A stretch of DNA of 32,000 nucleotides from Acaryochloris marina MBIC11017 (GCF_000018105.1 NC_009925.1:2550001-2582000); one strand, 5' to 3'. Shown: positions 789-18,078, counted from the first letter of the stretch. The notes: a model not told the origin generated them from the sequence alone. Program-made: numbers and translations.

Positions 789-1066
789 AATACAGCCATG
801 GACGCTTCCATAATCAATGAGGTGGCGAAATCAGCAGTGCCATGGGTTATGATGGAGCGAAAATCGTTAATTTTTACTAAACCTTTGCTGAGTCACCTCT
901 CAAAGATTTTAGTAAGCATTAGTACTTAGCAAGACTATGCTAACCTACTGGAAACGTGGGTATAGCCCGTTGGAAATCGCTAAGGAATGTGGACCTGCAC
1001 TCAGGTTCTATGGTCGGGGGGTTTATAAAAATGCAATTTATCACTCCTAATTTCGAGAAAATCTAA

Positions 1067-1729
1067 ATGATTGGACAACCAGAATTCGTTGAAAACCCTG
1101 AGAATCGTTGCCCCGTTATTTTATTGGTGGATACTTCTAGCTCCATGAGCGGTGCGCCCATGGATGCGTTGAATAGTGGCCTAGATGCCTTCAAAGAAGC
1201 GGTCATTCAGGATGAACAAGCCGCCTTACGGGTGGACGTGGCAATTGTCAGTTTTGGACCAGTAGAACTCGTCCAAGATTTTGTCACCATTGATCAATTT
1301 GTGCCACTGCAGCTAGAGGCTCATGGCCTGACGCCCATGGGTGAAGCCCTCAGTTATGCCTTGGATTTGCTAGAAACTCGCAAAGCCACCTATCGCAACA
1401 ATGGCATTCAATATTATCGGCCTTGGGTTTTCTTGATTACGGATGGTGCCCCCAATCCTGATTCTCCTTGGCAGCAAGCTGCTGAACGTCTGAAGAATGC
1501 TGAAGCTCAGCGGAAGTTGTCCTTTTTCGCCGTGGGTGTCCAGGGTGCAGATATGGCCATCTTGAACCAAATCACCCCTCCCGAGCGTCCCCCCCTCATG
1601 CTGAATGGGCTAGATTTCCGGTCCATGTTCCTCTGGTTGAGTGACTCGATGGTGCGCGTGTCTAGCAGCACCGTCGGCGGAGATATGGTTGCTTTACCCC
1701 CCGTCGGTTGGGGACAAATCGCCACTTAG
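1067..1729 (+). CDS. von Willebrand factor A (vWA) domain protein, TerY/YegL-like
   Basis: 220 aa. MIDAS motif DTSSS in VILLVDTSSSMSGAPMDAL (nt 1130-1144), later LITDGAPN. The N-terminal layout resembles TerY (..LLVDTSGSMSG..). It is the first gene of a co-directional triad. Confidence 0.85.
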   Translation: MIGQPEFVENPENRCPVILLVDTSSSMSGAPMDALNSGLDAFKEAVIQDEQAALRVDVAIVSFGPVELVQDFVTIDQFVPLQLEAHGLTPMGEALSYALDLLETRKATYRNNGIQYYRPWVFLITDGAPNPDSPWQQAAERLKNAEAQRKLSFFAVGVQGADMAILNQITPPERPPLMLNGLDFRSMFLWLSDSMVRVSSSTVGGDMVALPPVGWGQIAT

Positions 1730-1836
1730 ACATTAGAGACGGAGACTTGTGAGGGGGCTGCAAACATTGATGTTTGTTGCCTCTCCAGCTTCCGCATCCT
1801 ACCTATCGTTATTTTTCGCCCCCAAAAGGAGAGGTT

Positions 1837-2646
1837 GTGGCCTGGAGAGCAATCGTTCATTCTGCAATTGGAACTCGTCATCAACAGAAACAATTGCCTT
1901 GCCAAGATTATGGCAATTATCTGGTGCAAGCAGATACCATCATTGGTGCCGTTTCTGATGGTGCCGGCAGTGCCAAATTCTCAGATGTTGGGTCTAAGCT
2001 CGCCGTTAAAACAGCGTTGGCCATCCTGGAGAGCAGACAAGAAGACTGGTCAGCGGTTGACTTAGACACCATTCATGCTGAGGCTCCAAGTCTCTTCACT
2101 GAGATGGTTGAAGCGGTGGTTACGGCCTTGCGATCGCAAGCCGAGAGTGGTGAGTATCCTTTGCGAGAGCTAGGATGTACATTATTAGGCTTTATTTCCA
2201 CTCCCCATTGGCTGGCCTGTATGCAGATTGGCGATGGCTTTATTGTCACCCAAGCCCAGCAAACAGCCCCCGAGTCCTCTGAAACTGAACCCGTACCGTC
2301 CTTTGACCTGCTCTTCGAGCCAGTTAAAGGCGAATACATTAACGAAACAGTGTTTGTCACTAGCGATAATGCGGTAGAGCATATGCAAATTGCTGTGCGT
2401 GCGGATCATCATCCCTTTGTCTGTGCGGCTACGGATGGCCTCGAGAAAGTCGCCATTCGATTTCAGGATTGGCAAGCATTTCCACCTTTCTTCAAGCCTT
2501 TCTTAGACTGTTTACGCTCGATTTCCGATCCTGAGGAACGCCAAACCTATTTAGAGATGTTTTTAGAATCAGATCGGTTAAATGCCAAGACGGACGACGA
2601 CAAAACTTTACTGCTTTGTCTATTTAGGCCAGAGGCTGACGAATGA
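1837..2646 (+). CDS. PP2C-family Ser/Thr protein phosphatase (YegK/PphC-like)
   Basis: The ORF is open from 1774. A GTG at 1837 lies 5 nt after an AAAGGAGAG Shine-Dalgarno-like string and gives the start VAWRAIVHSAIGTRH..CQD typical of this family. PP2C-like Asp/Gly motifs: GAVSDGAGSA, MQIGDGF, AATDGL, DDKTLL. The stop overlaps the kinase start (ATGA at 2643-2646). Confidence 0.8.
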   Translation: MAWRAIVHSAIGTRHQQKQLPCQDYGNYLVQADTIIGAVSDGAGSAKFSDVGSKLAVKTALAILESRQEDWSAVDLDTIHAEAPSLFTEMVEAVVTALRSQAESGEYPLRELGCTLLGFISTPHWLACMQIGDGFIVTQAQQTAPESSETEPVPSFDLLFEPVKGEYINETVFVTSDNAVEHMQIAVRADHHPFVCAATDGLEKVAIRFQDWQAFPPFFKPFLDCLRSISDPEERQTYLEMFLESDRLNAKTDDDKTLLLCLFRPEADE

Positions 2647-5039
2647 CCGTTCTCAAATGCCAAGTTTCGGGTCGCACACTATCCCTGACGAAGCAGATCG
2701 CCAGTAGTGGGGAGGGTACGGTTTGGAAAACTAGCTATCGGGGTTTTCTCGCCAAGCTCTATCACGAACGCACACCGGAGCGGTTTCAAAAATTACGGGT
2801 GATGATTGCCCATCCGCCTCAAGATCCGACCCTAGGGCAAAATCATATTTCCCTGGCTTGGCCGAAAGATTTGCTGGAAAACCAGCAGGGCCAGCCCATG
2901 GGGTTCATCATGCCGGAAGTGGGGGAAAGCGTTAAGTTATCCACCATCTACAACCCCCGGCTTCGCAGTCGCAAAGCACCTCGATTTAACTGGTATTATC
3001 TCCATACCGCAGCCCTTAATATTGCATCCAGCATGAATGCGGTGCATAAAGAAGGGTATGTGGTTGGGGATGTCAAACCCCAAAATATCTTGGTCAATAA
3101 CCAAGCCCTGATTTCGATTATTGATACGGATTCGTTTCAGGTCCAAGACCCACACACTCGGGAAGTGTTTCGGTGTTTGGTGGGTTCAGAAGGGTTTACC
3201 CCCTCCGAATTATTAGGCAAGGATTTAGCCTCCGTTGACCAGACCGAACTCCATGATCGGTTTCGATTAGGGGTAATTGTTTTTCTCCTCCTCTTCGGCG
3301 ATCAGCCCTTCAAAGGGAAGTGGATTGGTCGAGGAGAGTCCCCCCAGCCCACCACTCTGATTGAAAAAGGATTCTGGCCCTACGCCCCCCAAAGCCTGAT
3401 TCGTCCCGGTCCCAACACCATACCCCTGTCAATTTTGCACCCCCAGCTGCAGTCCTGCTTTCATCAGTGCTTTACCCAGGGCCATGGCCAATCCCATTTG
3501 CGCCCCTCTGCCAATCAATGGATGACCGCCCTGCAGAAAGCCATTGAGAACCTCAAGACTTGTAATTTGGAGTCCAACCACCATTACAGCCAAAGCTATG
3601 GCCATTGTTACTGGTGCGATCGCAACTCTCGCCTAGGGGTTGATATCTTCAGTCCTAATCCGGTGATTCCCAAGCCTGCCCCCAAACGTCGCCAGCAAAA
3701 AAAGAGGAAGAGTCCTTGGGCCACCCAGCCTCCCAGCCAAGCCAACCCGGCGTTAGCAGCAGCCTATGCCCAACGGATGCAGCAGCTCCAGAATATGCAA
3801 ATTCCGAATTCTGGCATCACCCGCTCGATTCTGCAGATGCCCTTAGTCCAGCGGACGAGTTGGCCACCCTCCATTTCCAATTCAGTCCTAGGGCTGATTT
3901 TATGTGGCTTTAGTTTTTTGGGATTGGGGTTACTCTTGGCCCCAGAACTGAATCCTCAAACCTTTAGCTATTGGTCTAAATCCCTGGAACGCGCCGTCGA
4001 TCAGTGGCTCGTCTCCAAGCTCGGCACCACCTTGTCAGGGCCACCTATCGCTCAGCTCCCCCCTCCCGGCCAAGCAACCACAGGTCAAAGCATTGCTGCC
4101 CCGGTAAACGGTCAAAAAGGCCATTGGGACACGATCACGACCTTATCGATTAGTCCAGATAGTGGCACCCTGGTCAGCGGTAGTCGAGACTTTACCCTCA
4201 AAATCTGGGATTTAAAGACGGGGCAATTGCTCAATACCTTATCGGAACATTATGAGCCCGTGGTCTCTAGCCATATTATTGACGATGGCCAGTCCCTGAT
4301 TAGCAGCAGCATTAGCGGTAAAGTCTTGCAGTGGGACTTGACCACGGCCACCCTAAGTCGCAGCTTTGTCAATTACACTGCCATGCGCCCTGAAGGTGGG
4401 ATTCGGGCCACCGTCATTGATCCCAAAAAACGCATTATGGCTAGTAGTGCCTGGGGCGGCTCCATTCTCCTCTATAACTTAGCGACAGATAAAGTCACCC
4501 GCATCCCCTCGCAATTAATGGCCTCTGAACAAACCATGGTGCTGAGTCCAGATGCGAAAAGTTTGGTGACCAGCAACAGTGACGGCCAAATTCAACAGTG
4601 GAATGTTCAGACGGGTAAATTAGTCAGACGCTTGCCCAATACCCAGGGGTGGCAGTCTTCTGAACTCACCAGTGCCATCGCCTTAAGTCCCCAAGGGAAT
4701 ACCCTAATTACGGGAAGTTGGGGCGGGAATCTTGGGTTATGGAATTTTCAAACCGGTAAGCTGATTAAAAACTTTAAGGCCCATGAGAAACGGGTGGCTT
4801 CGTTGGCCGTGAGTACCGACAACAAATTTCTAATCAGCGGTGGAGAGGACCAGACCATCAAGATTTGGAGCCTCAAAACCGGCCAGCTGATCCAAACCCT
4901 GACGGCTCACCAAGGCAGCATTTCGACCTTAGCCATTAGTCCCGATAACCGCTGGTTGGTGAGTGGGAGCAGCGATCGCAGTATCAAAGTCTGGAATTTA
5001 AAGACCGGAAAGCTTCTGCGCACCCTACTCAACTCTTAG
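2643..5039 (+). CDS. Ser/Thr protein kinase (YegI/TerY-P type) fused to Zn-ribbon, TM helix and seven WD40 repeats
   Basis: 798 aa.
- Kinase: Gly-loop SSGEGTVWKT, AKLY lysine, catalytic loop GDVKPQNILV (Asp at 3069-3071), IIDTDSF in place of DFG, GSEGFTPSE.
- Zn-ribbon: CNLESNHH..YGHCYWCD.
- K/R-rich linker: KRRQQKKRK.
- Hydrophobic helix: SVLGLILCGFSFLGLGLLLAP (3882-3944).
- Seven blades ending KIWDL, LQWDL, LLYNL, QQWNV, GLWNF, KIWSL, KVWNL. Confidence 0.87.
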   Translation: MTVLKCQVSGRTLSLTKQIASSGEGTVWKTSYRGFLAKLYHERTPERFQKLRVMIAHPPQDPTLGQNHISLAWPKDLLENQQGQPMGFIMPEVGESVKLSTIYNPRLRSRKAPRFNWYYLHTAALNIASSMNAVHKEGYVVGDVKPQNILVNNQALISIIDTDSFQVQDPHTREVFRCLVGSEGFTPSELLGKDLASVDQTELHDRFRLGVIVFLLLFGDQPFKGKWIGRGESPQPTTLIEKGFWPYAPQSLIRPGPNTIPLSILHPQLQSCFHQCFTQGHGQSHLRPSANQWMTALQKAIENLKTCNLESNHHYSQSYGHCYWCDRNSRLGVDIFSPNPVIPKPAPKRRQQKKRKSPWATQPPSQANPALAAAYAQRMQQLQNMQIPNSGITRSILQMPLVQRTSWPPSISNSVLGLILCGFSFLGLGLLLAPELNPQTFSYWSKSLERAVDQWLVSKLGTTLSGPPIAQLPPPGQATTGQSIAAPVNGQKGHWDTITTLSISPDSGTLVSGSRDFTLKIWDLKTGQLLNTLSEHYEPVVSSHIIDDGQSLISSSISGKVLQWDLTTATLSRSFVNYTAMRPEGGIRATVIDPKKRIMASSAWGGSILLYNLATDKVTRIPSQLMASEQTMVLSPDAKSLVTSNSDGQIQQWNVQTGKLVRRLPNTQGWQSSELTSAIALSPQGNTLITGSWGGNLGLWNFQTGKLIKNFKAHEKRVASLAVSTDNKFLISGGEDQTIKIWSLKTGQLIQTLTAHQGSISTLAISPDNRWLVSGSSDRSIKVWNLKTGKLLRTLLNS

Positions 5040-5058: not shown

Positions 5059-6168
5059 CTATCTGCCCTGAAGATAATTGACGATGCCTTGGGCAATGGC
5101 TTCGGCCAACCGTTTGCGATGGGCTGCTGTTCTTAATTTTGCCGCATCAGTGCTGCCCGTTACAAACCCAAGTTCCACGAGAGCGGCGGGCATGGAGGAT
5201 TTTCTTAAGACATAGAAGCGGGCTTGGCGAATGCCGCGATCGCCGACGGATACAGTCCGACGAATGCTGGTATGAATGGCGCGGGCCAAACGGTATCCCG
5301 TCACATAATAGTAGGTTTCTAAACCGTTGACTTCAGGACGGCTCAGGCTAATGGCATTGGCATGAATACTGACAAACACGTCGGCGCGAGCCCCTTCAGC
5401 TTTGGCCACTCGTGGCGGTAAGTCAACTTCGCGATCGCCCGTCCGTGTCAACACCGCATTAATCCCCCGCTTTCGCAGCAGGTTATGCACTTGCGTCGAC
5501 ACATCCAAGACGACTCGTTTCTCCTGGAGACCACCAATGCCCACGGCACCTGGATCCGCCCCCCCATGGCCCGGATCAATGACGACGACTTTTGCCCCGG
5601 ATTTGACGGGTTTAGAAACGATGGGTCCCGGTGAAGAAATAGAAGGCTTGGGGATTTTGGGGGGCGGAACTCGCACGGCAATGGTTCGCCGAGACGACTT
5701 TTTAGCATCCTTGAGGGGGAAAAATTTAGGCAGTTGCACATACCAGCGATTCGGGGCAATCCCCCGCACCAGAACTCGCCGGGGGCTCAAGGTGTATTTT
5801 TTACTCAGCTCAACTACCACCCGCGTGGTCTTACGATTATGCTGAGCGACCCGCACTTCTCGAACATATTTGCTAATTTTGCGGCGGGCTTTGAGTTTAC
5901 GGAAGGTGGTGTTGGGAAGGTCAATCACCAACCGGGTCGGGTTCATGACGACTTTTGCCCGCGGCTTCGTCGCTGAGTTCGTAATCAGGTCAATGCGACT
6001 TTGCTTAGAATTAAACTTCCAGTAGGTCAGTTGACCCGCTGATGCACTGTCTGCCCAGCAGAATAGACTCAAAGCGAGGGGCAATACCCAACCGGCTTTC
6101 CTTATCTTGCAATTCCACAGTCGTCTCTGAGCAGGCAAATCTTTAGTCTCGATTAGGTGGGGGGTCAA
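5059..6168 (-). CDS. amiC: N-acetylmuramoyl-L-alanine amidase (Amidase_3) with N-terminal AMIN domain, AmiC-like
   Basis: 369 aa. Signal-like N-terminus (WVLPLALSLFCWADSASA). AMIN-like segment LTYWKFNS..RIDL...TRLVIDLPNT. Catalytic domain VVIDPGHGGADPGAVG ... FVSIHANA ... ETYY ... LVELGF. Confidence 0.9.
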   Translation of the reverse strand: MTPHLIETKDLPAQRRLWNCKIRKAGWVLPLALSLFCWADSASAGQLTYWKFNSKQSRIDLITNSATKPRAKVVMNPTRLVIDLPNTTFRKLKARRKISKYVREVRVAQHNRKTTRVVVELSKKYTLSPRRVLVRGIAPNRWYVQLPKFFPLKDAKKSSRRTIAVRVPPPKIPKPSISSPGPIVSKPVKSGAKVVVIDPGHGGADPGAVGIGGLQEKRVVLDVSTQVHNLLRKRGINAVLTRTGDREVDLPPRVAKAEGARADVFVSIHANAISLSRPEVNGLETYYYVTGYRLARAIHTSIRRTVSVGDRGIRQARFYVLRKSSMPAALVELGFVTGSTDAAKLRTAAHRKRLAEAIAQGIVNYLQGR

Positions 6169-6392: not shown

Positions 6393-7970
6393 CTAAGTGT
6401 CTTCTACCCCTTGGGAGAGACGAATCGGTGCCAGGGGATAGTGATACCACTGGCGTTGAAAGCGTTCTGCAATCAGAGGACGCAGGATAAATTTAGGGGG
6501 CGTTCCGGCCTGGACATCAATCCGGAGCCCGGAATAGGGGCGATGTTTTTGAGACCCCTGTCCATGGCGGCTAATAAAGAGTTGCGATCGCGCCACGCAT
6601 CGCTCGGATCCGCTATCCACCAACTCCCACAAGTCAGGGCCTTCGGGGCGTTGTCGCCGCAGACTAAATCCACTGCCGCCACACACCACACAATTGATAT
6701 GGGAATCGGCATGGCCCGTATCGCCGGTTTTCAAAACCTCTAGACAGTGGGCATGGCCATTGAGGATCAAATCCACCAGGGGACGACCAGCCGTTTGCTC
6801 TCCCACGGCCTGCTGGACCTGATCTAAAACCTGGCGCAAATGACGGCGGATGGCCAGAGTTTGGCCCTGATACCATTTACTGGCCTCGGTGACATAGGGA
6901 GGGTGATGGAAAAATAAGACGCGTCCTCTCACCTCGGGGGTGGACCAGGACTCAATTAACCGCTGTTTTAGCCACACCAACTGTTCGATATCTAAGCGAA
7001 GGTCAGGGTCATCCGCCAATTGCTTATCAATATCTAAAATTTGCTCGTCTAATTGCTCAACTTTAGTATAGGTATCGCTGTCATCATCCTCTGAGCGAGA
7101 CTCATACTGGCGCAACGCTGCTGCCAATGCCCGACTTCTGGCATTGATCAGGGCTTGGCGATCGGCTTTGAGTTGTCGTCGTCGCAATCGGCCCGTTTTA
7201 TCTTTAGGAATGGGCAGTGGGGTATTTAAGGTATTCGAGTCCAGGGCAAAGAAATCAATCCCGCCCTGACGAAACTGATAGTAACGGTTGGGTAACCGCG
7301 TAAACACCCCAGGTTGATAGCGCAAGCAACGCTGGCCACGAAAATCAGCAGTGTAATGGGCCTCAATATGCTGGCGAAGCTCAGCCGTTGTCAACCGCTG
7401 GAGATAATCTAAAAACGCTTGGGCATAGGCATCCCCTTTATTGGACCCATGCCAGCCCAGATCGAGATCGAGCTGGCGCTGAAACAGATTACGGATCGGT
7501 AAAGTGGCCTGCGCAATCAGCCCCACACACCAGGGTAAATCATAGTAATCATGGTTGCCCGGTACGGCAAACAGAGGCACCTTAAAGACCATTTGATCGT
7601 AGGCAATCTGTTGAGGCCGCTCACCATTGACCAGCCACTCTCGATACGGGCGAATAAAATTATCAAAATATTGCTCCTTCGACCCCACCAGGTACACCAC
7701 ATCCCCCGTATGGAGCACAAAGTTGCTGCCCTGCCCATGGGCTAACAATTGCTCCATCACGCGTCGCTGAGGACTATCGCCACGATATTGTCCGGTGCCA
7801 CTATCCCCAATCACCAAAAAGGAAAAATCGGGACTATCCGACCGGTCATCATCCACCACTAATCGGGTTTGATCAATCCCTCTAGCCTGTAGAACAGGAT
7901 GCTGCCAACATACCCGCTCCTGCATTTTGGCAATTTTGACGGCGACGGCAGGATCCGCAATCAACTTCAT
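6393..7970 (-). CDS. calcineurin-like metallophosphoesterase with a long charged/coiled-coil insertion
   Basis: Motifs FLVIGDSGTG, HTGDVVY, GNHDYY, FFHHPPY, NGHAHC. The track ORF runs to 8090 but would overlap the rhomboid gene by 113 nt. The ATG at 7970 (MKLIADP..) sits 7 nt after the rhomboid stop and removes the overlap. Confidence 0.85.
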   Translation of the reverse strand: MKLIADPAVAVKIAKMQERVCWQHPVLQARGIDQTRLVVDDDRSDSPDFSFLVIGDSGTGQYRGDSPQRRVMEQLLAHGQGSNFVLHTGDVVYLVGSKEQYFDNFIRPYREWLVNGERPQQIAYDQMVFKVPLFAVPGNHDYYDLPWCVGLIAQATLPIRNLFQRQLDLDLGWHGSNKGDAYAQAFLDYLQRLTTAELRQHIEAHYTADFRGQRCLRYQPGVFTRLPNRYYQFRQGGIDFFALDSNTLNTPLPIPKDKTGRLRRRQLKADRQALINARSRALAAALRQYESRSEDDDSDTYTKVEQLDEQILDIDKQLADDPDLRLDIEQLVWLKQRLIESWSTPEVRGRVLFFHHPPYVTEASKWYQGQTLAIRRHLRQVLDQVQQAVGEQTAGRPLVDLILNGHAHCLEVLKTGDTGHADSHINCVVCGGSGFSLRRQRPEGPDLWELVDSGSERCVARSQLFISRHGQGSQKHRPYSGLRIDVQAGTPPKFILRPLIAERFQRQWYHYPLAPIRLSQGVEDT

Positions 7971-7977
7971 GGAGGGC

Positions 7978-8697
7978 CTAATCTTCAGCAGAAAGCACAG
8001 CGCTATCTGCTTTGCTAAATAACCCCAGAAGCGGCCCCAGAATTGCGCCAAATACAAATCCACCGGCATGGGCCCAATAGGCAATTCCACCCGCTTCCAT
8101 ACCGACAGTGACGGGAGCGTCTAAACTGGCAACACCGTAAAAAGCTTGCTGCAAAAACCAAAATCCCAGGTAGAGAATCGCGGGAATTCTAAAGGTAGTC
8201 AGATAGATGCCCAAGGGGACTAGGGTTAGAATTCTGACTTGGGGGAAGCGAAAGATATAGGCCCCCATCACCCCTGCGATCGCACCGCTGGCTCCTAAGG
8301 ATGGCACCACCGACAGGGGGTTGAAAAACCATTGGGTTAGAACTGCCAAAGCCCCGCAGGCTAAATAAAAGAGCAGAAACCGTATACGTCCCAGCTGCTC
8401 TTCCACGTTATTGCCAAAAATCCATAGGTAGAGCATATTGCCCGCCACATGCAAAAAACCGCCATGGAGAAATTGGGAGGTAATCAAGGTGCCCCACTCT
8501 CCGGCATCCACCGCAGAAAAGCCGCCAAAACTCGCAGTCAGTTCGATGGGAACCACCGCCCAATGCTGCATAAAGAGGCTGAGCTGTCCCGGAGACAAGC
8601 TCAACTCATAGCCAAAGATCAATACATTGAGAACAATCAGGCCATAGGTCACATAGGGCGTGATTTGAGTTGGATTTTCATCGCGAAGAGGAACCAC
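7978..8697 (-). CDS. rhomboid-family intramembrane serine protease
   Basis: 239 aa, polytopic. Motifs FLHGGFLHVAGNMLYLWIFG, catalytic GASGAIAGVMGAY and HAGGFVFG. Confidence 0.9.
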   Translation of the reverse strand: MVPLRDENPTQITPYVTYGLIVLNVLIFGYELSLSPGQLSLFMQHWAVVPIELTASFGGFSAVDAGEWGTLITSQFLHGGFLHVAGNMLYLWIFGNNVEEQLGRIRFLLFYLACGALAVLTQWFFNPLSVVPSLGASGAIAGVMGAYIFRFPQVRILTLVPLGIYLTTFRIPAILYLGFWFLQQAFYGVASLDAPVTVGMEAGGIAYWAHAGGFVFGAILGPLLGLFSKADSAVLSAED

Positions 8698-8760
8698 TTG
8701 TACAACCTCGCTGGGGGGACTACTATGCAGCTTAGTTTATTTATCCCGTGAACGGGTGTG

Positions 8761-9162
8761 TTATCCCTGAGTCTTAGCAGGTTCAATGCGCAGCGTTATC
8801 AGAAACCCCATCAGAGCAATAAAGTAGAGTACTACGACAACCGCAAATCCAGCGACTGGGGGCGTACAGTCAGCTCCCTGCTTAAAGCCAAAGCAATCCC
8901 TGGGGCTCGCGAGCAGGACCAACCCCTGGCAAATCAGGCTCCCCCACAGCCAGATCTCGCGATACCTGAGCTGGCCATGGGGATGCTTAATTGCACAGAC
9001 GATCAGGTAGAGGAGACCCACACCATATCCAGGCAGTACCAGCATGAAGAATGCGATCGCAACTGGAATGGTAAAGGCCAGCAGATTATGGATGATAAAG
9101 CTGCCGATTGCATATAGCCCAAACCAAAGGGCAAATGTCTTGATAGAGATGGTTGAAGACAT
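8761..9162 (-). CDS. hypothetical small integral membrane protein (about 4 TM)
   Basis: 133-aa ORF, strongly hydrophobic, no recognised motif. Co-directional with neighbours. Confidence 0.5.
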   Translation of the reverse strand: MSSTISIKTFALWFGLYAIGSFIIHNLLAFTIPVAIAFFMLVLPGYGVGLLYLIVCAIKHPHGQLRYREIWLWGSLICQGLVLLASPRDCFGFKQGADCTPPVAGFAVVVVLYFIALMGFLITLRIEPAKTQG

Positions 9163-9232
9163 CTTTCATATCCCACGGTGGCGATCTGCCCAACTGGATC
9201 AACAGCAGGCATAGCTCAATCATAGAAGCGGC

Positions 9233-9700
9233 TTAAGGAGATGCCAACTGTATCTCTACAGGACGAATCACCCATCGGGAAGCTGAGCTACCAACCGTGT
9301 TCACCTCAACCGTTCCCTCCACCCTGACGGTCTGCTGATCAAACTGGTCGGCTTCTGCAGGGGAGCGCAAAGATTGCTTATGGGTCGGAGGATAAAGGAA
9401 GACAGAGGTCCCATCGTTCAAAACTATCGTGGCTCGGATATGGGGAATGGGCGGTTGCTCGGGATTCCAGATGCCTGCGCTCGTGATATCTGGTATTTGT
9501 TTTTGGGCAACGTAGCGCCCTTGCAAGGTCACCGTTTGGCTCCCATATTTTTGCAGCGTTTTTTGATCCTGGATGAGAGGCATATGGTTAACGGTTGGGT
9601 CGTATTTTTGAGGCAGTTCACAAGCCATCAATGGATATCCTGACAGGGTCAACCCCAAAATTCCTAAGCTATACCCTACGACTTGTCCTAGTTGCGGCAT
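9233..9700 (-). CDS. hypothetical protein, possible lipoprotein
   Basis: 155 aa. Hydrophobic N-terminus ending in the lipobox-like LMAC. No recognised domain. Confidence 0.5.
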   Translation of the reverse strand: MPQLGQVVGYSLGILGLTLSGYPLMACELPQKYDPTVNHMPLIQDQKTLQKYGSQTVTLQGRYVAQKQIPDITSAGIWNPEQPPIPHIRATIVLNDGTSVFLYPPTHKQSLRSPAEADQFDQQTVRVEGTVEVNTVGSSASRWVIRPVEIQLASP

Positions 9701-9837
9701 TGAATTAGATGACTTGATTATCTTTCAGTTTAAAAATACCCACCGACGATCCACCCATTTCTTTCTAGAGAAAAATAGGCACTGGTCTGTTAGCAGGATC
9801 TAGCTATAATGCCTTCGACGGAACCTGATGTAGATCA

Positions 9838-10152
9838 ATGGAATGCCCATACTGTCAAAGTGAGAAGATCCTTAAGCGTGGCTTTGATAGTCTGCAAGAT
9901 GGGACATTAGTCCAGCGATATCAGTGTAAGGATTGCAATCGTCGTTTCAACGAACGCACAGGCACCCCAATGGCTCGTTTACGCACCGCTAGTTCAGTGG
10001 TGAGCTATGCCATCAAAGCTCGCACCGAAGGAATGGGGGTCCGTTCAGCAGGTCGTACCTTTGGTAAATCTCATACCACCATTATGCGTTGGGAAAAACG
10101 CCTAGCAGACCAAGCACAGAACTGGTCACCCCCCCGCACCAGCAGCCTCTGA
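9838..10152 (+). pseudogene. IS1-family transposase, N-terminal segment (Zn finger + HTH, InsA-like)
   Basis: CPYCQS...CKDCNRRF zinc finger and an HTH-like segment (GMGVRSAGRTFGKSHTTIMRW). The frame ends just after a C7 tract (10129-10135). The reading continues in the next frame as DVTVEGDEVYTRVGKN. Confidence 0.8.
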
Positions 10153-10190
10153 TGTGACGGTAGAAGGGGATGAAGTATACACTCGTGTAG

Positions 10191-10835
10191 GCAAAAATCT
10201 TCCCCCCCAGCCAGTCCCAGGGCTGGACCATCCACTTCCTTGAACGCGAAAGCCGCTATTGGTTGACAGCACTAGCTGGCCTCAAGGATGCACAACTTTT
10301 TGCAAATGGCGTTTACTCAGCTTGGGAGTGGGTGAAAGCCTGTGATGGGATTCGATGGTTTACCGATGGTGAAAGGCGTTATGGACAAGAACTTTGGCAG
10401 CTTGCCAGTGTCTATCTCAAAGGTGATGAGTGTCATCCTGACTATGGGCATCGCAAGGTTTGGCGAGAAGGGTTAGAAGTCGTGATGAAAGTTAAAGGGT
10501 CTCAGGGGAATCGGCGAGTAGAGTGGGTGAAAGCAGAGCATCCCTTTACCGCTATCAGTCCAGGGTCTGAGATCCATGCCAATCATAATGAGGCTCACAA
10601 TGCTGCCTTGAGGAGACGATGTAGTGCTTATCGAAGGCGGCAGAATCTCTACGCTAAGAAGCGGTCGGCGTTACAGCGAGTGCTAGACGTACAACGCCTG
10701 ATTCATAACTGGGTTAGACCCCATTGGGAACTCAGTAAGCAGACCACACTAGCCATGGAGATGGGATTTTGTTCTCGCCCACTGAGTACTTTAGAACTCC
10801 TCACCAATAAAGGGTTTAGGTATGTGCCCTGTTAG
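10191..10835 (+). pseudogene. IS1-family transposase, C-terminal DDE segment (InsB-like)
   Basis: The frame is open from 10191 (the track starts at TTG 10263). GWTIHFLERESRYW, FTDGERRYG and the tail HNEAHNAALRRRCSAYRRRQNLYAKKRSAL resemble the IS1 InsB end ([25 protein letters not shown]). It is reached from the middle segment only by a second shift at a C7 tract (10202-10208). Confidence 0.8.
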
Positions 10836-10922
10836 TAGACCAGTGCCTCTCGCCCACTGAGTACTTTAGAACTCCTCACCAATAAAGGGTTTAGGTATGT
10901 GCCCTGTTAGTAGACCAGTGCC
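10773..10922. repeat. perfect 2 x 75-bp tandem duplication of the IS right end
   Basis: 10773-10847 and 10848-10922 are identical base for base (checked by hand). Each copy holds the last codons and stop of the transposase plus the right inverted repeat. Confidence 0.95.
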
Positions 10923-11373
10923 GAAAAATAGTAATGTTGAACATTGCGACAACTTGAGAGTTGCTATCCTTCTTAATCATATTTGTCCTTAATCAACACC
11001 TCCAAATGCTCAGGATAATTTAAATCAAAGATGGCTAACTATGGCCAGCTATCTTTGGATATCTGACCTGCGGTTGAAATTGCTACATTTCTTTTTTAGC
11101 AGGCTTTCTAGACTCAAAACCCTTTGAAAATCCTAATAAAAAAAGAAAGATATTTTCATACACAAAAATAAATTAGGATCTAAATTCTTGTAATTTTATA
11201 GACTACTTTTGGCAAAATATTTTTCTCTATGATGTGTTTTTTTTAGTCAAGGGCAATCTAGGGCATGGCCCATAATGCCCTAGCAATCCGATAGAAAGCT
11301 AGCGCATGAACCTCTGAGAATCTAATGCAATATTTCGATCAGTTACTAGTTCTCTATACACAAACTATTTGAT

Positions 11374-12504
11374 ATGAAAGCAATGATTTTGGCGGCTGGT
11401 AAAGGCACCCGCGTTCGCCCAATAACGTTCACGATTCCCAAGCCCATGATTCCGATCATGCAGAAACCTGTAATGGAGTTTCTAGTCGATCTACTTCGGC
11501 AACATGGTTTTGATGAAATCATGGTGAACGTAAGCCATTTAGCAGATGAAATTGAAAGCTATTTTAGAGATGGCCAAGGTTTTGGCGTGGATATTGCGTA
11601 CTCCTTTGAAGGGCGAATTGAAGACGGCATGCTGATCGGAGATGCCGTTGGTTCAGCAGGAGGGATGAAGCGGATTCAGGACTTTTCGCCATTTTTTGAC
11701 GATACCTTTATTGTGCTCTGTGGTGATGCCCTGATTGATCTAGATTTAACGGCTGCAGTGGAATGGCATCGACAAAAAGGCTCCATGGCCACCATCATTA
11801 TGAAAACCGTCGATCCAAATGATGTTTCTAGCTATGGGGTTGTCGTCACGGATGAAGAAGGCCGAATCAAATCTTTCCAGGAGAAACCTACGGTTGATGA
11901 GGCCCTCAGCAACACCATCAACACAGGTATTTATATTTTTGAGCCTGAGATTCTAGATTTGATTCCCTCTGGAGAAGAGTTTGATATTGGGGGGGATCTT
12001 TTTCCCAAACTGGTGTCGATGAATTTACCGTTTTATGGCGTTGCCATGGATTTTCAATGGGTGGATATTGGCAAGGTTCCCGATTATTGGCATGCCATTC
12101 GTAGCGTATTGAAAGGCGAGGTCAAAAATGTGGCGATTCCAGGTCGTGAAGTGAAGCCTGGTATCTATACTGGCCTGAACGTTGATGTCAACTGGGATAA
12201 GGTCGATATTCAAGGTCCGGTATACATTGGCGGCATGACTCGTATTGATGACGGGGTAAAAATTATTGGCCCAACCATGATTGGACCGAACTGTCATATT
12301 TGTAAGGGCGCAACGGTAGACAACAGCGTGATCTTCGAGTACTCTCGCCTGGGTCCTGAAGCGAATCTAGTCGATAAGTTGGTGTTTGGACGCTACTGTG
12401 TGGATAAAACAGGTGTATCCCTCGATGTTCGCACAGCCGCTTTGGATTGGCTGATTACGGATGTTCGCCAAGATGCTCATGTTCCCGCACCTGTGATGAT
12501 CTAA
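11374..12504 (+). CDS. NDP-sugar pyrophosphorylase (nucleotidyltransferase + left-handed beta-helix); likely CugP-type UDP-glucose pyrophosphorylase / mannose-1-P guanylyltransferase-like
   Basis: 376 aa. N-terminal MKAMILAAGKGTRVRPIT..PKPMIPI signature of sugar-1-phosphate nucleotidylyltransferases. C-terminal hexapeptide-like region (GPVYIGGMTRIDDGVKIIGPTMIGPNCHI). Confidence 0.85.
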   Translation: MKAMILAAGKGTRVRPITFTIPKPMIPIMQKPVMEFLVDLLRQHGFDEIMVNVSHLADEIESYFRDGQGFGVDIAYSFEGRIEDGMLIGDAVGSAGGMKRIQDFSPFFDDTFIVLCGDALIDLDLTAAVEWHRQKGSMATIIMKTVDPNDVSSYGVVVTDEEGRIKSFQEKPTVDEALSNTINTGIYIFEPEILDLIPSGEEFDIGGDLFPKLVSMNLPFYGVAMDFQWVDIGKVPDYWHAIRSVLKGEVKNVAIPGREVKPGIYTGLNVDVNWDKVDIQGPVYIGGMTRIDDGVKIIGPTMIGPNCHICKGATVDNSVIFEYSRLGPEANLVDKLVFGRYCVDKTGVSLDVRTAALDWLITDVRQDAHVPAPVMI

Positions 12505-12793: not shown

Positions 12794-13225
12794 ATGCTCA
12801 TTTGCTCAGTTCATGCTGTCTCTTGGGCAGATTCTCTGTGTCTGCCTTGTCTATCTGTCCCAGTCCCTGCTGGGTTCCCTTCCCCAGCCGATGACCATTT
12901 ACAGAACAATTTGAATCTGCAAGAAGCGCTCATTCCTCGCCCTGCTGCGACGTTTTTGATGCGTGTCAAAGGAGATTCGATGGAAGGCTGTGGAATCTTC
13001 TCGGGGGATTTATTGATTGTGGATCGCTCCCTAACCCCCGTCGATGGGGCCGTAGTGATTGCTGTCTTAAACGGCGAGTTTACGGTGAAACAGCTGCGAT
13101 TATCGCAAAAAACAATTTTATTAGCTGCCGCCAATGCAGACTATACCCCCATCGTCGTCAAAGCCGGAATGGAATTTCAGGTGTGGGGTGTGGTCACCTA
13201 TGTGGTGCATGGGTTGCAGGTTTGA
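12794..13225 (+). CDS. umuD: UmuD-like S24 peptidase, DNA polymerase V accessory subunit
   Basis: VPAGFPSPADD aligns with E. coli UmuD VQCGFPSPAADY, giving an Ala-Gly cleavage site at 12869-12874. Catalytic Ser in VKGDSMEG and Lys in GEFTVKQL. The tail VWGVVTYVVH is like UmuD VFGVVIHVV. Confidence 0.9.
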   Translation: MLICSVHAVSWADSLCLPCLSVPVPAGFPSPADDHLQNNLNLQEALIPRPAATFLMRVKGDSMEGCGIFSGDLLIVDRSLTPVDGAVVIAVLNGEFTVKQLRLSQKTILLAAANADYTPIVVKAGMEFQVWGVVTYVVHGLQV

Positions 13226-14487
13226 AACAGCGTCTAATCGGGCTGTGTGACTGCAACTCGTTCTATGCCTCCTGTGAAATGGCGCTCAATCCCCACTTGC
13301 AACATAAGCCGGTTGTGATCGCTTCCAATAATGATGGGGTCGTTGTGACCGGCAATGCTGCGGCGAAAGCCTTAGGCTTAGGCATGGGGGTGCCGCTGTT
13401 CAAGGCCCAAGATCTGATTAAAAAGCATGACGTACGAGTCTTTAGCTCCAACTACGCGTTGTATGGTGACCTCTCCCAGCGGGTGATGGCAGTCTTGGAG
13501 CAGCACACACCTGAACAAGAAATCTACTCCATTGATGAGTGCTTTATCCGTATGCCGGAATTTGCTGAGGCCACGACCTATGCCCGCAACATCAAAGAGA
13601 CGGTGAAAAAATGGACGGGGATTCCAGTTTCGATGGGGATGGCCACGTCCAAAACGTTAGCGAAAATTGCCAACCACGTTGCTAAAAAACAGAAGGGATA
13701 TGATGGCGTCTTTGATCTGTCCACGGCCCGCAATGCGGAAGGGATTCTGGCCACCTTTCCTGTGAAAGAGATTTGGGGAATTGGACGGCAATACAATAAG
13801 TGGCTACTCAGCCAGGGCATTGAAACGGCAAAGGAACTGCGAGATGCCAATGAAGGGATGATCCGTCAGAAAATGGGGGTGGTCGGTGTGCGGATAATTC
13901 ATGAGCTTCAGGGAATTTCTTGTCTGCCCCTAGAGCTGGTGGCCAAGCCCAAAAAAGAAATTTGTGTGTCTCGCTCCTTTGGTCAGCCCGTCACAGAGTT
14001 GGCGGATTTGCAAGATGCGATCGCAGCCTACGCATCAAGAGCGGCAGAGAAGCTGCGCCAGGAACAGCAGGTGGCAGAGGCCATGGTTGTATTCGCCCGC
14101 ACCAGCCCTTTTAAGTCAGGATATTTTCGCCAATCCGCAACAGTGCAGTTCCCTATTGCCACTAGCTATACGCCCGCCATAGTCGAAGCGGCCCGCAAAG
14201 CCATGGAGCGACTCTACGAACCGGACCGGGAATTTCAGAAGGCAGGTGTGCTGATGGTGGGTCTTTGTTCTGAAACGACTATCCAAGGGCATCTCTGGGA
14301 GAAAGATGAGGGTTGGGAGAAACGAAAGAGACTGATGTCGATTATGGATGAGGTGAATACTCGGTTTGGCCGAGGCACGATCGGCATTGCAGCGTCGGGG
14401 GCAAAGCAGACCTGGAAAATGCAGTCAAAGTGGCGATCGCCGAGGTATACAACCTGCTGGGCAGAGTTACCTGTGGCGAGTTGTTGA
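13222..14487 (+). CDS. umuC: UmuC, Y-family translesion DNA polymerase V catalytic subunit
   Basis: GLCDCNSFYASCEMALNPHLQHKPVVIASNNDGVVV..AKALGLGMGVP..FSSNYALYGDLSQRVM..IYSIDECF parallels E. coli UmuC (ALCDVNAFYASCE..KPVVVLSNNDGCVI..FSSNYELYADMS..IYSIDEAF). The track start is GTG 13183. TTG 13222 overlaps the umuD stop (TTGA) and gives an N-terminus of UmuC-like length. Confidence 0.9.
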   Translation: MKQRLIGLCDCNSFYASCEMALNPHLQHKPVVIASNNDGVVVTGNAAAKALGLGMGVPLFKAQDLIKKHDVRVFSSNYALYGDLSQRVMAVLEQHTPEQEIYSIDECFIRMPEFAEATTYARNIKETVKKWTGIPVSMGMATSKTLAKIANHVAKKQKGYDGVFDLSTARNAEGILATFPVKEIWGIGRQYNKWLLSQGIETAKELRDANEGMIRQKMGVVGVRIIHELQGISCLPLELVAKPKKEICVSRSFGQPVTELADLQDAIAAYASRAAEKLRQEQQVAEAMVVFARTSPFKSGYFRQSATVQFPIATSYTPAIVEAARKAMERLYEPDREFQKAGVLMVGLCSETTIQGHLWEKDEGWEKRKRLMSIMDEVNTRFGRGTIGIAASGAKQTWKMQSKWRSPRYTTCWAELPVASC

Positions 14488-16857: not shown

Positions 16858-18078
16858 TTAAATAATTAGCCAGGTTACTAAACCCCAAAAAGGCACGAAT
16901 CGCAGCCACCGTTTTTTAGGATTAGTTTCTACAGCACCTAGCAGAACAATCTGAAAAAGCGTAAAGAAGACAAAGTCCACACAGAAGGCAGCGGAGACCC
17001 GGTTTATCGTTACCTGAGTCCCGAAATAGTTAAGTCGCTCTGCCACAGTGCCAAATTCTGGTCCAATAAACCCAAACCAGAACAGCGCCATCCCACTCAC
17101 CAAAAACCCTATCCAACCAAAGGCCCGAGCTAAAAGCCCTTTCGAAGGCGATGGTATGTCTTCAGGGAGGGGCATGGCAGCTCTCATGGCCATATACGGA
17201 ATCATAAAAGCATTCGTCAGAAAGAGCGCCATACTCCAAATCGGCACTTTGGGTAGCTTTTGGCTACGCACATCAGCTAACAGTAAGGGCAAGAAAATAA
17301 AAATCCAAGCAATGGCAAAGTTGAAAAAGGCTTGGTCTACCGGATGAACCAGAGGCGCTTCCAGGTAGTGAATGCCTAGCATGTTAGCTAAGGGCAAGAT
17401 AAAGAAGAAGTTGAGGGACTCATTCAGCACTTCCTGCCAGGTTTCCGCTTGAATCGCCCATACTGGTTCTCCAGGCATCAGTTGTCCTGGTGGAGAGAGA
17501 AACAGGATATAAATATAGGCTCCAGCCAAAAGCCAGAGCAGTCTGGATATCCACGGCTGAGACGAATCTGGCGGGCTGGCTGAAGACTGAAGTGATGTTT
17601 CCCCAGGCTCAGCGGGTTTCAGTAGCAGCCGCACTAAGGGGGCAATCAAGCGCAGAATCAAAAATGCGCCTTTACCAGGCTTGATCACAGGTTCAACCAA
17701 ATCCCGGGCAAAGATCAGTTTTCCAGTTTTCTCAGATAGTCGGCAAAAGCTAACCCCTCGTCCATTGGGTAGGGGAATACCACCCAGCTCCACATGCCAG
17801 AGAATACCTACCGCAAGAGCATCACCTTCCGTAATGTCGTCCACCACAAATAACAAGTCTGCAGGCATCCCTTTACAAGATTCAGTGAATAGCTCCCCCA
17901 CTGCTGCTTTCCCTTGAAAAGGTATCGGAAAATTTAGGTCTTGATAACAACAGTCTGGATCAACATATTCCAGGGCTTTGGCAACATTGCGCTCATTAAT
18001 GGCCTCATACATGGCCTGAATGAGGAGATGGGCTGGGAGTGTCATGGGGTTCAGGACATAGAGGAGAACATCGGTCAT
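16858..18078 (-). CDS. NTF2/SnoaL-like domain fused to a polytopic membrane domain (hypothetical)
   Basis: 406 aa. The N-terminal ~130 aa (LIQAMYEAINERNVAKALEYVDPDCCYQD...GRGVSFCRL..GKLIFARDLVE) has the SnoaL/NTF2-like pattern. The remainder has about 6 hydrophobic helices. Confidence 0.6.
   Translation of the reverse strand: MTDVLLYVLNPMTLPAHLLIQAMYEAINERNVAKALEYVDPDCCYQDLNFPIPFQGKAAVGELFTESCKGMPADLLFVVDDITEGDALAVGILWHVELGGIPLPNGRGVSFCRLSEKTGKLIFARDLVEPVIKPGKGAFLILRLIAPLVRLLLKPAEPGETSLQSSASPPDSSQPWISRLLWLLAGAYIYILFLSPPGQLMPGEPVWAIQAETWQEVLNESLNFFFILPLANMLGIHYLEAPLVHPVDQAFFNFAIAWIFIFLPLLLADVRSQKLPKVPIWSMALFLTNAFMIPYMAMRAAMPLPEDIPSPSKGLLARAFGWIGFLVSGMALFWFGFIGPEFGTVAERLNYFGTQVTINRVSAAFCVDFVFFTLFQIVLLGAVETNPKKRWLRFVPFWGLVTWLII

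What the first reader, a model, noticed from the sequence alone, without database searches (positions are those of the whole stretch)
1067..5039. vWA - PP2C - Ser/Thr kinase triad (TerY-P / YegL-YegK-YegI type) in a cyanobacterium, without any ter genes
Seen:
- Three co-directional genes with a short gap and an ATGA overlap (2643-2646).
- The vWA protein has an intact MIDAS DTSSS motif.
- The PP2C has its Asp/Gly motifs.
- The kinase has the atypical catalytic loop GDVKPQN and IIDTDSF.

Established: this gene triad was defined computationally as the TerY-P triad (Anantharaman, Iyer and Aravind). E. coli yegI/yegK(pphC)/yegL belongs to it. Its physiological input and output remain unresolved.

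Inference: no terD/terZ/terB-type genes are in this window. The triad here is a stand-alone phospho-switch, plausibly a stress, envelope or phage-sensing module.
Basis: partly seen in the sequence, partly recalled or inferred. Interest (0 to 1): 0.6.

Follow-up and report, generated by a model that had tools for sequence, protein, structure and literature searches.

The report
YegL-PphC-YegI type kinase triad
Three neighbouring genes in Acaryochloris marina encode a metal-binding adaptor-like protein, a phosphatase and a membrane kinase with a WD40 propeller; they are clear relatives of the E. coli YegL-PphC-YegI module, a known but functionally unexplained signalling cassette, so this is an ordinary new member of it.

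Summary
Window 1067-5039 holds three co-directional genes:
- a 220-aa vWA protein with an intact MIDAS site;
- a PP2C_2 phosphatase;
- a 798-aa Ser/Thr kinase whose ATG overlaps the phosphatase stop (ATGA, 2643-2646).

They match E. coli YegL (50% identity), PphC (33%) and the YegI kinase core (33%). The same gene order occurs in 19 of 20 assessable cyanobacterial loci, and all three genes are under purifying selection.

- The phosphatase most likely starts at GTG 1837 (269 aa).
- The kinase is more than a kinase domain. It also has an invariant CHCC zinc-ribbon-like motif, a disordered linker, one predicted transmembrane helix and a seven-bladed WD40 propeller.

The DTD motif is not a sign of a dead kinase. 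E. coli YegI is active with DSD, and changing it to DFG abolishes activity.

No ter genes lie in the window. The locus sits in a conserved spoT-triad-amiC arrangement, not in a defence island.

The window matches A. marina MBIC11017, where these genes are already annotated generically. Verdict: a new member of a known, functionally unresolved module. Interest is low to moderate.

The parts
849..866 (+). Conserved non-coding block TATGATGGAGCGAAAATC in the spoT-vWA spacer. Possible promoter or regulatory element of the triad.
   Evidence: Nearly invariant (one substitution, in L005) across five Acaryochloris loci although synonymous sites are saturated. Function not tested.
1015..1066 (+). Conserved leader directly upstream of the vWA start (GGGGGGT.TATAAA.ATGCAATTTATCACTCC...GAGAAAATCTA).
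   Evidence: Alignment A3. Function not tested.
1067..1729 (+). YegL-type vWA protein, 220 aa, with an intact MIDAS site (D22, S24, S26, T89, D126). Also has conserved N-terminal PEFxENPExRCP and C-terminal LPPVGWGQ tails.
   Evidence: Pfam VWA. 50% identity to E. coli YegL. Invariant residues. AlphaFold model pLDDT 79, with generic vWA domains as best Foldseek matches. Lowest dN of all genes compared.
1130..1144 (+). Codons for the MIDAS motif D-T-S-S-S.
   Evidence: Sequence read directly. D22, S24 and S26 are invariant.
1826..1831 (+). Shine-Dalgarno-like AAGGAG, 5 nt before GTG 1837.
   Evidence: Sequence.
1837..2646 (+). PphC-type PP2C_2 phosphatase, 269 aa from GTG 1837 (the longest ORF starts at TTG 1774).
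   Evidence: Pfam PP2C_2, 1e-46. 33% identity to PphC. Motif alignment. Called as 269 aa in public assemblies.
2643..2646 (+). ATGA overlap of the phosphatase stop and the kinase start (translational coupling).
   Evidence: ORF coordinates. The same 4-nt overlap is described for pphC/yegI in E. coli B (10.1101/819920) and is seen in L027.
2643..3647 (+). YegI-type Hanks kinase core, aa 1-335. Features: SGEGTVW loop, K38, catalytic loop GDVKPQN (nt 3066-3086), DTDSF in place of DFG (nt 3123-3137).
   Evidence: Pfam Pkinase. 33% identity to YegI aa 11-337. Conservation. AlphaFold pLDDT about 90.
3561..3617 (+). CHCC zinc-ribbon-like motif (C307, H313, C322, C325) at the end of the kinase core.
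   Evidence: Invariant in 30 homologues and present in YegI. The model shows two short strands and a helix. Metal binding not tested.
3660..3878 (+). Basic, low-complexity disordered linker (about aa 340-412).
   Evidence: pLDDT below 50. Highest dN.
3879..3935 (+). The single predicted transmembrane helix (about aa 413-431).
   Evidence: The only hydropathy peak in the protein. Helix 413-431 in the model.
4134..5027 (+). Seven-bladed WD40 beta-propeller (aa 498-795), predicted to lie on the far side of the membrane from the kinase.
   Evidence: Pfam WD40 and beta-propeller families. 28 strands in the model. Foldseek TM 0.92-0.93 to seven-bladed propellers, including a prokaryotic (Thermomonospora) WD40 domain, 5yzv.

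Best explanation
This is a chromosomal, vertically inherited operon of the YegL-PphC-YegI (TerY-P-like) kind: a self-contained Ser/Thr phospho-switch.

Shown here:
- The domain make-up of the three genes.
- Homology to the E. coli proteins.
- Retention of every residue that was shown to matter in YegI and PphC.
- Co-conservation of the three genes.
- Purifying selection on all three.

Inferred by analogy with E. coli:
- The kinase autophosphorylates on the D-T-D-S loop.
- The translationally coupled PP2C resets it.

Inferred from anatomy:
- The kinase is receptor-like. A cytoplasmic kinase plus zinc-ribbon-like motif is followed by a disordered linker, one membrane helix and a seven-bladed WD40 propeller on the other side of the membrane. 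The propeller would bind the input ligand and control kinase clustering.
- The vWA protein is the most constrained of the three. It is the conserved partner of the kinase and phosphatase. It most likely acts as the phospho-acceptor or adaptor that carries the output, using its metal site and its conserved tails. The invariant Ser cluster W190-L-S192-x-S194...S199 is a candidate acceptor site.

The signal and the downstream target are not known.
For: Homology to YegL, PphC and YegI. Pfam domains.

Catalytic and metal residues are invariant.
- K38, D143 and the D-x-D loop correspond to YegI K39, D141 and DSD. Each of these is required for YegI activity.
- The window kinase keeps the canonical K and N of the catalytic loop, which YegI itself lacks.
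- PphC dephosphorylates YegI (10.1101/303594).

The triad is widely conserved.
- It is present in 19 of 20 assessable genome loci.
- It accompanies kinases with TPR, ARC6-like IMS or two-helix C-termini.

dN is far below dS for all three genes. The vWA gene has the lowest dN, 0.016-0.045, lower than the SpoT C-terminus next door.

Topology evidence:
- One hydropathy peak and one model helix lie between the kinase and the propeller.
- A paralogue with the same single-helix layout carries an ARC6-like IMS domain. To my knowledge that domain type lies in the intermembrane space or periplasm.

The spoT-triad-amiC order is conserved across Acaryochloridaceae and Thermosynechococcaceae. GC content is like the surroundings.
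Against: - No experiment exists on any cyanobacterial member. The physiological role is unknown even in E. coli, where no condition that induces expression was found.
- The side of the membrane on which the WD40 domain lies is not settled. E. coli YegI is two-pass with both ends in the cytoplasm. In the Trichormus plasmid homologue the WD40 domain precedes a C-terminal hydrophobic anchor, which would leave it in the cytoplasm. The helix in the model has low confidence (pLDDT about 50-57).
- That the vWA protein is the substrate or adaptor is inference only.
- One relative has vWA plus kinase without a PP2C (L032), and one has the kinase alone (L020). The triad is therefore not obligatory.
Confidence: 0.7

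Rival explanations
1. It is an anti-phage defence system of the TerY-P kind. Infection would be sensed, kinase activity would rise, and phosphorylation of host or phage proteins would stop the infection.
For: TerY-P-like triads were reported as stand-alone defence systems against T7-like phages (Gao et al. 2020, as summarised in PMC7699616 and PMC11090510).

Some relatives sit in mobile or defence-like settings:
- a conjugative Trichormus plasmid, next to an integrase and an HNH endonuclease;
- next to a large STAND/HerA-like NTPase (L030);
- next to an SNF2 helicase (L027);
- in Pseudomonas aeruginosa ATCC 27853, as strain-specific genes close to a type I restriction gene.
Against: - Here the triad lies between spoT and an amiC-type amidase, in an order kept across two cyanobacterial families.
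- The vWA gene evolves more slowly than the neighbouring spoT C-terminal segment, and GC content is unremarkable.
- No defence gene lies next to it.
- The defence versions described carry an OB fold on the kinase. This one carries a membrane helix and WD40 repeats.
- PADLOC gave no match, but that is uninformative. It also missed classical TerY and E. coli YegL.
Confidence: 0.12
2. It is a metal or tellurite stress module working with Ter proteins encoded elsewhere in the genome. The vWA metal site would act as the metal sensor.
For: The vWA protein is a distant homologue (30-31% identity) of TerY in ter operons. COG4245 is named after the R478 tellurite region. The triad has been hypothesised to be a metal-sensing phospho-switch (Anantharaman 2012, as quoted in PMC11090510).
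Against: - No TerD, TerB, TerC or TelA domain occurs in any ORF of at least 100 aa in the 32-kb window, nor in the gene tables of five relatives' loci, L027-L031.
- The window proteins are much closer to YegL and YegI, which are not ter-linked in E. coli, than to the ter-plasmid set.
Confidence: 0.08
3. The kinase is a pseudokinase because the DFG motif is degenerate, so the three genes form a scaffold without phosphotransfer.
For: DTD replaces DFG, and there is no clear alpha-C glutamate. Pfam Pkinase matches only aa 115-225, with a modest score.
Against: - E. coli YegI with DSD is active, and restoring DFG or DSG kills it.
- The window protein keeps K38, D143, K145, N148, D161 and D163, all invariant or nearly so.
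- A PP2C with intact metal-binding motifs is translationally coupled to it. That would be pointless without phosphorylation.
Confidence: 0.05

Closest known systems
E. coli YegL - PphC (YegK) - YegI
   Same: - Same three protein families in the same order, with the same ATGA overlap of phosphatase and kinase in E. coli B strains.
- 50%, 33% and 33% identity.
- The same unusual kinase motifs (VGD... catalytic loop, D-S/T-D-S instead of DFG) and a CHCC motif after the kinase.
- A membrane-anchored kinase.
   Different: - YegI has two membrane helices and a cytoplasmic C-terminal region. The A. marina kinase has one predicted helix followed by a WD40 propeller.
- The A. marina catalytic loop is more canonical (D-V-K-P-Q-N against D-V-N-Q-N-S).
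- The flanking genes differ (spoT and amiC here; yegD and mdtABC in E. coli).
TerY-P triad of ter plasmids and of CoCoNuT type II / III-A systems
   Same: A vWA (TerY-like) protein, a PP2C and a Ser/Thr kinase in one operon. The kinase is followed by a zinc-ribbon-like element, as described for the CoCoNuT-linked triads.
   Different: - Only 30% (vWA), 25% (PP2C) and 20% (kinase) identity to the ter-plasmid set.
- No ter genes and no McrBC, helicase or nuclease genes nearby.
- The YegL-type N-terminal tail PEFxxNPExRCP is absent from TerY.
TerY-P anti-phage system (Gao et al. 2020)
   Same: The same three domain types acting as a stand-alone cassette.
   Different: The kinase there is fused to an OB fold. 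Here it is fused to a membrane helix plus WD40 repeats. The context here is a conserved housekeeping neighbourhood.
Bacterial Ser/Thr kinases with C-terminal propellers (Thermomonospora curvata PkwA with WD40; M. tuberculosis PknD with an extracellular NHL propeller)
   Same: A Hanks-type kinase joined to a propeller. The WD40 model superposes on a prokaryotic Thermomonospora WD40 domain (5yzv, TM about 0.9), which to my knowledge is PkwA. The kinase - single helix - propeller layout is that of PknD (own knowledge).
   Different: The kinase core belongs to the YegI family, not the PknB-like family. It comes with a dedicated vWA partner.
Sulfolobus ArnA/ArnB with ArnC/D kinases; Deinococcus DRA0331-0334
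   Same: A vWA protein encoded with Ser/Thr kinases and phosphatases. In Sulfolobus the vWA protein ArnB is itself phosphorylated (own knowledge). The Deinococcus operon holds a vWA protein, a membrane kinase, an FHA protein and a PP2C.
   Different: Those systems include FHA proteins. There is none here, and they are not close sequence relatives.

Membership tests
YegL-PphC-YegI triad (COG4245 / PP2C_2 / COG4248) | Small stand-alone vWA protein homologous to YegL with an intact MIDAS site | tested here: met
   50% identity over 213 aa, E 1e-66. D22, S24, S26, T89 and D126 are invariant. Homologues are named YegL by JGI.
YegL-PphC-YegI triad (COG4245 / PP2C_2 / COG4248) | PP2C_2 phosphatase homologous to PphC that keeps the metal-binding Asp (PphC D46) | tested here: met
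   Pfam PP2C_2, 1e-46. 33% identity to PphC. SDGAGS aligns with the ADGAGS segment of PphC, which contains D46 by residue count.
YegL-PphC-YegI triad (COG4245 / PP2C_2 / COG4248) | Kinase with YegI-type motifs: VGD catalytic loop, D-S/T-D in place of DFG, conserved Lys | tested here: met
   33% identity to YegI aa 11-337. K38, D143 and D161-T-D163-S164 are conserved. The motif description is in 10.1101/819920.
YegL-PphC-YegI triad (COG4245 / PP2C_2 / COG4248) | Gene order vWA, PP2C, kinase on one strand, with phosphatase and kinase overlapping | tested here: met
   The overlap in E. coli B is described.
YegL-PphC-YegI triad (COG4245 / PP2C_2 / COG4248) | Kinase anchored in the inner membrane | tested here: inconclusive
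   One hydrophobic helix is predicted, against two in YegI. There is no topology experiment.
YegL-PphC-YegI triad (COG4245 / PP2C_2 / COG4248) | Kinase autophosphorylates and is dephosphorylated by the PP2C | not testable with these tools
   Needs biochemistry. Shown only for the E. coli proteins.
TerY-P triad linked to ter or CoCoNuT systems | TerY-like vWA protein, PP2C and Ser/Thr kinase encoded together | tested here: met
   Distant homology to the ter-plasmid TerY (30%), PP2C protein (25%) and kinase (20%).
TerY-P triad linked to ter or CoCoNuT systems | Neighbouring terZABCDE-type genes or McrBC/helicase/nuclease genes | tested here: not met
   No such domains in any ORF of at least 100 aa in the window.
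TerY-P triad linked to ter or CoCoNuT systems | Zinc ribbon after the kinase domain | tested here: inconclusive
   An invariant C307, H313, C322, C325 motif with a strand-strand-helix model. No HMM match and no metal data.
TerY-P anti-phage system (Gao 2020) | Kinase fused at its C-terminus to an OB fold | tested here: not met
   The C-terminus is a membrane helix plus a WD40 propeller.
TerY-P anti-phage system (Gao 2020) | Match to defence-system profile models | tested here: inconclusive
   No PADLOC match for the vWA protein or the PP2C. The control with classical TerY and E. coli YegL also found nothing, so the library seems to lack such models.
TerY-P anti-phage system (Gao 2020) | Protects against phage | not testable with these tools
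   Needs infection assays.
WD40-bearing bacterial Ser/Thr kinases (PkwA-like architecture) | Hanks-type kinase joined to a C-terminal seven-bladed WD40 propeller | tested here: met
   28 strands in aa 498-795. TM 0.92-0.93 to seven-bladed propellers, including 5yzv. This is a shared architecture, not shared kinase ancestry.

The most novel reading that the evidence does not exclude
In cyanobacteria the YegL-PphC-YegI module is not a mobile defence or tellurite cassette. It is a housekeeping receptor-kinase system. Its kinase exposes exchangeable sensor domains outside the cytoplasm (WD40 here; ARC6-like IMS or MORN after a single helix in paralogues). Its very strongly conserved vWA protein is the phospho-regulated output. 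The conserved position next to spoT and an AmiC-type cell-wall amidase would then hint at envelope or peptidoglycan surveillance coupled to growth control.
Probability: 0.2. Interest if true: 0.55.

Novelty: new member of a known kind. Interest (0 to 1): 0.25.

Why it matters
The triad is widespread, yet its input and output are unknown even in E. coli, where no condition that induces it has been found.

The cyanobacterial members add three useful facts:
- The module can be a stable, vertically inherited chromosomal locus.
- The vWA subunit is the most constrained part. It is 50% identical between a cyanobacterium and E. coli.
- The kinase swaps its C-terminal module (WD40, TPR, ARC6-like IMS, MORN, or a plain two-helix anchor) while the core triad stays the same.

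This points to the vWA protein as the place to look for the output and to the C-terminal modules for the input. None of this changes how the module is classified. The genes are already annotated in A. marina MBIC11017, so the finding itself is ordinary.

Tried and rejected
1. **PADLOC scan.** It found nothing for the vWA protein or the PP2C, even at E 10. A control with ter-plasmid TerY, E. coli YegL, PphC and the Trichormus vWA protein also found nothing. I treat the negative as uninformative, not as evidence against defence.

2. **PDB sequence search with the vWA protein.** It returned only TAL-effector repeats at aa 70-91, with no single stretch passing on its own. This is an artefact of the short 'AHGLTP' string matching many TALE repeats. 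The PP2C found no solved relative. The kinase found only distant eukaryotic kinases.

3. **The Anantharaman, Iyer and Aravind 2012 paper (PMC4104200).** It is not held. Its content is cited only through later papers.

4. **Rfam and tRNA scans of the window.** Nothing found.

5. **A possible small upstream ORF** starting at ATGATGGAG (about 851). Rejected because indels break the frame in the other Acaryochloris loci.

6. **Promoter and terminator consensus scans.** No more sites than in shuffled sequence.

7. **A recurring neighbour.** Cell-wall genes appear near several triads: AmiC here; Beta-lactamase2 in L027 and L028; SpoIID and a PBP in L029; SH3_3 in L030. An Hsp70/DnaJ pair appears in L030, recalling E. 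coli yegD. Positions and families differ, and no statistical test was possible. This is kept only as a weak lead.

8. **dN/dS.** dS is saturated (above 1, sometimes not computable), so only the ranking of dN is used.

9. **Foldseek on the full kinase model.** It was dominated by WD40 hits and said nothing about the kinase domain.

Full report
**What is in the sequence**

The region holds three co-directional ORFs: 1067-1729 (220 aa), 1774-2646 (longest reading) and 2643-5039 (798 aa). Their Pfam assignments are:
- VWA, E 5e-10.
- PP2C_2, E 1e-46.
- For the third protein, a protein kinase domain (E 3e-11, aa 115-225, when the N-terminal 500 aa are scanned alone) and a long list of WD40 and beta-propeller families over roughly aa 497-796.

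- DTSSS at aa 22-26 of the vWA protein (nt 1130-1144).
- GDVKPQN at aa 142-148 and IIDTDSF at aa 159-165 of the kinase.
- The phosphatase stop and the kinase start overlap as ATGA at 2643-2646.

The phosphatase most likely starts at GTG 1837. That codon is preceded by AAGGAG at 1826-1831. It gives 269 aa, the length called in public assemblies. It is also where E. coli PphC and the Trichormus homologue begin to align.

The exact vWA and kinase sequences are those of Acaryochloris marina MBIC11017 (ABW27523.1 and ABW27525.1). There they are annotated as a putative vWA domain protein and as 'WD40 repeat protein / protein kinase domain-containing protein'.

**Relation to known proteins**

Against the E. 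coli K-12 yegI-yegL region, BLASTP gives:
- vWA against YegL: 50% identity, E 1e-66.
- PP2C against PphC: 33%, E 3e-39.
- Kinase aa 9-336 against YegI aa 11-337: 33%, E 1e-43.

Public homologues carry the JGI names 'uncharacterized protein YegL' and 'DNA-binding helix-hairpin-helix protein with protein kinase domain'. These agree with the names of COG4245 and COG4248. [quoted passage not shown]

A protein search of plasmids found more than 2,000 records with matches at about 30% identity, mostly enterobacterial. Some of those listed are annotated TerY or lie beside TerD-family genes. In one such plasmid the TerY genes are followed by a further vWA protein, a PP2C-containing protein and a kinase. 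These are 28%, 25% and 20% identical to the window proteins.

The window triad is therefore a close relative of the YegL/PphC/YegI branch and a distant relative of the ter-linked TerY-P set.

**Is the kinase likely to be active?**

In an alignment of 30 family members these positions are invariant or nearly so:
- K38.
- G142, D143, K145 and N148.
- D161, D163, S164, F165 and Q166.
- The TP-x-E segment.
- C307, H313, C322 and C325.

Rajagopalan and Dworkin showed the following for E. coli YegI (10.1101/819920):
- It autophosphorylates and prefers Mn.
- It needs K39 and D141.
- It carries DSD instead of DFG, and conversion to DFG or DSG inactivates it.
- The serines in and next to this loop are autophosphorylated.

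The same group showed that PphC dephosphorylates YegI (10.1101/303594).

The A. marina kinase keeps all the corresponding residues. It even keeps the canonical Lys and Asn of the catalytic loop, which YegI has lost. The 'degenerate DTD' is thus the family signature, not a sign of a pseudokinase.

The PP2C keeps SDGAGS, MQIGDG, TDG and TDDDKT in register with PphC.

**Architecture of the kinase**

The AlphaFold model, built on a 30-sequence alignment, shows:
- a confident kinase fold over aa 1-335, ending in two short strands and a helix that carry the CHCC residues;
- a disordered basic linker, aa 340-412;
- a helix at aa 413-431, which coincides with the only hydropathy peak of the protein;
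- a second helix at aa 438-460;
- 28 strands between aa 498 and 795, that is seven four-stranded blades.

Foldseek superposes the propeller on seven-bladed WD40 proteins with TM 0.92-0.93. These include a prokaryotic WD40 domain from Thermomonospora (5yzv).

With a single membrane helix, the propeller would lie on the opposite side of the membrane from the kinase, in the periplasm or possibly the thylakoid lumen. Evidence in favour: a paralogue with the same single-helix layout carries an ARC6-like IMS domain after the helix. To my knowledge that domain type lies in the intermembrane space or periplasm.

Evidence that calls for caution:
- YegI is two-pass with both ends in the cytoplasm.
- In the Trichormus plasmid homologue the WD40 repeats come before a C-terminal hydrophobic tail.
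- The helix in the model has low confidence.

**Conservation and context**

A scan of one genome per species found 23 loci. In 19 of the 20 loci with enough upstream DNA, the vWA and PP2C genes precede the kinase in the same order. One locus (Leptothermofonsia) has the kinase alone.

Further contigs show the same triad with different kinase C-termini:
- TPR repeats (L027).
- An ARC6-like IMS domain (L028).
- Two terminal helices (L029-L031).
- One contig lacks the PP2C (L032).

Among the 120 best kinase hits, 7 carry WD40, 16 TPR, 2 ARC6-like IMS and 1 MORN. The rest have no recognised C-terminal domain.

Around the A. marina-type loci the order spoT, vWA, PP2C, kinase, amiC-type amidase (opposite strand) is kept through Acaryochloridaceae and Thermosynechococcaceae. 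GC content matches the surroundings.

Non-synonymous divergence among Acaryochloris relatives ranks as follows (dS is saturated, so only the ranking is used):
- vWA, 0.016-0.045.
- SpoT C-terminus.
- Kinase core.
- Amidase.
- WD40.
- PP2C, 0.09-0.23.
- Linker.

All three genes are clearly constrained, and the vWA protein most of all. Its predicted-disordered N- and C-terminal tails are invariant. They are shared with E. coli YegL but not with TerY, which suggests docking motifs.

**What is not there**

- No TerD, TerB, TerC or TelA domain in any ORF of at least 100 aa in the window.
- No defence gene beside the triad.
- No Rfam family and no tRNA.

**Interpretation**

The best-supported reading is a functional YegL-PphC-YegI type phospho-switch in which:
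- the kinase is receptor-like;
- the PP2C is its translationally coupled reset;
- the vWA protein is the conserved partner, substrate or adaptor.

Only the first layer is shown here: domains, homology, conserved catalytic residues, co-conservation and selection. Activity is inferred from the E. coli work. Topology and the role of the vWA protein are inferred from anatomy.

The anti-phage reading (Gao 2020) cannot be excluded. It fits some relatives in mobile settings. It fits this locus poorly, because of the stable syntenic position, the slow evolution and the different kinase C-terminus.

A ter-linked metal role and a pseudokinase scaffold are less likely, for the reasons given above.

**Novelty**

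- The triad is a known, computationally defined module. The E. coli enzymes have been characterised biochemically.
- The A. marina genes are already annotated.
- WD40-bearing kinases in a vWA-PP2C-kinase operon are annotated in RefSeq for Trichormus.

This is therefore a new member of a known kind. The parts worth keeping are the exchangeable C-terminal modules, the probable extracytoplasmic WD40 domain, and the exceptional constraint on the vWA subunit.

Noticed in passing
window 24250-27826 (+): An 869-aa protein with an eCIS_core domain (PF13699, aa 177-254) is followed by a 318-aa YbjN-like protein. Both lie in a low-GC patch (0.38-0.41 against about 0.50 elsewhere). They look like a horizontally acquired toxin or effector with a chaperone or immunity partner.
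   Followed up: no
window 789-1066: The spoT-vWA spacer holds strongly conserved non-coding blocks: TATGATGGAGCGAAAATC at about 849-866, and a roughly 50-nt leader at 1015-1066. They are conserved across Acaryochloris loci whose synonymous sites are saturated, so they are probably regulatory. No Rfam match.
   Followed up: partly
window 12794-14487 (+): A umuD-like (Peptidase_S24) and umuC-like (IMS, IMS_C, DUF4113) gene pair with overlapping ends: an SOS-type translesion polymerase operon.
   Followed up: no
window 6393-8697 (-): The longest ORF of a 565-aa calcineurin-like phosphoesterase (GTG at 8090) overlaps the 3' end of the upstream rhomboid protease gene (7978-8697) by 113 nt. The true phosphoesterase start is probably further downstream.
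   Followed up: no
window 1067-1729, aa 1-16 and 203-220 of the vWA protein: The N- and C-terminal tails are predicted disordered (pLDDT below 50) yet invariant in 31 cyanobacterial homologues. They are shared with E. coli YegL but absent from TerY, which makes them candidate docking peptides. A Ser cluster (W190-L-S192-x-S194...S199) is conserved in both YegL and TerY.
   Followed up: partly
L027, L028, L029, L030 and window 5059-6168: Cell-wall-related genes recur within a few kb of the triad in unrelated contexts: an AmiC-type amidase, Beta-lactamase2-family proteins, SpoIID, a PBP transpeptidase and an SH3_3 protein. This may be chance and was not tested statistically.
   Followed up: partly
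L025 (Trichormus variabilis 0441 plasmid), 7995-11512: A second kind of WD40 kinase triad lies on a conjugative plasmid. Here the WD40 repeats follow the kinase directly and the hydrophobic segment is at the extreme C-terminus. It sits near an integrase and an HNH endonuclease. This suggests that WD40 was fused to this kinase family more than once.
   Followed up: partly
L032, 5297-7485: In one metagenomic contig the vWA gene is followed directly by the kinase, with no PP2C gene between them: a two-gene variant of the module.
   Followed up: no
window 18938-20158 (-): A 406-aa AAA+ ATPase with an AAA_lid_6 domain (CbbX/SpoVK-like) lies next to unannotated ORFs at 18220-18789 and 16858-18078 (SnoaL_2, 406 aa). 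Function not examined.
   Followed up: no
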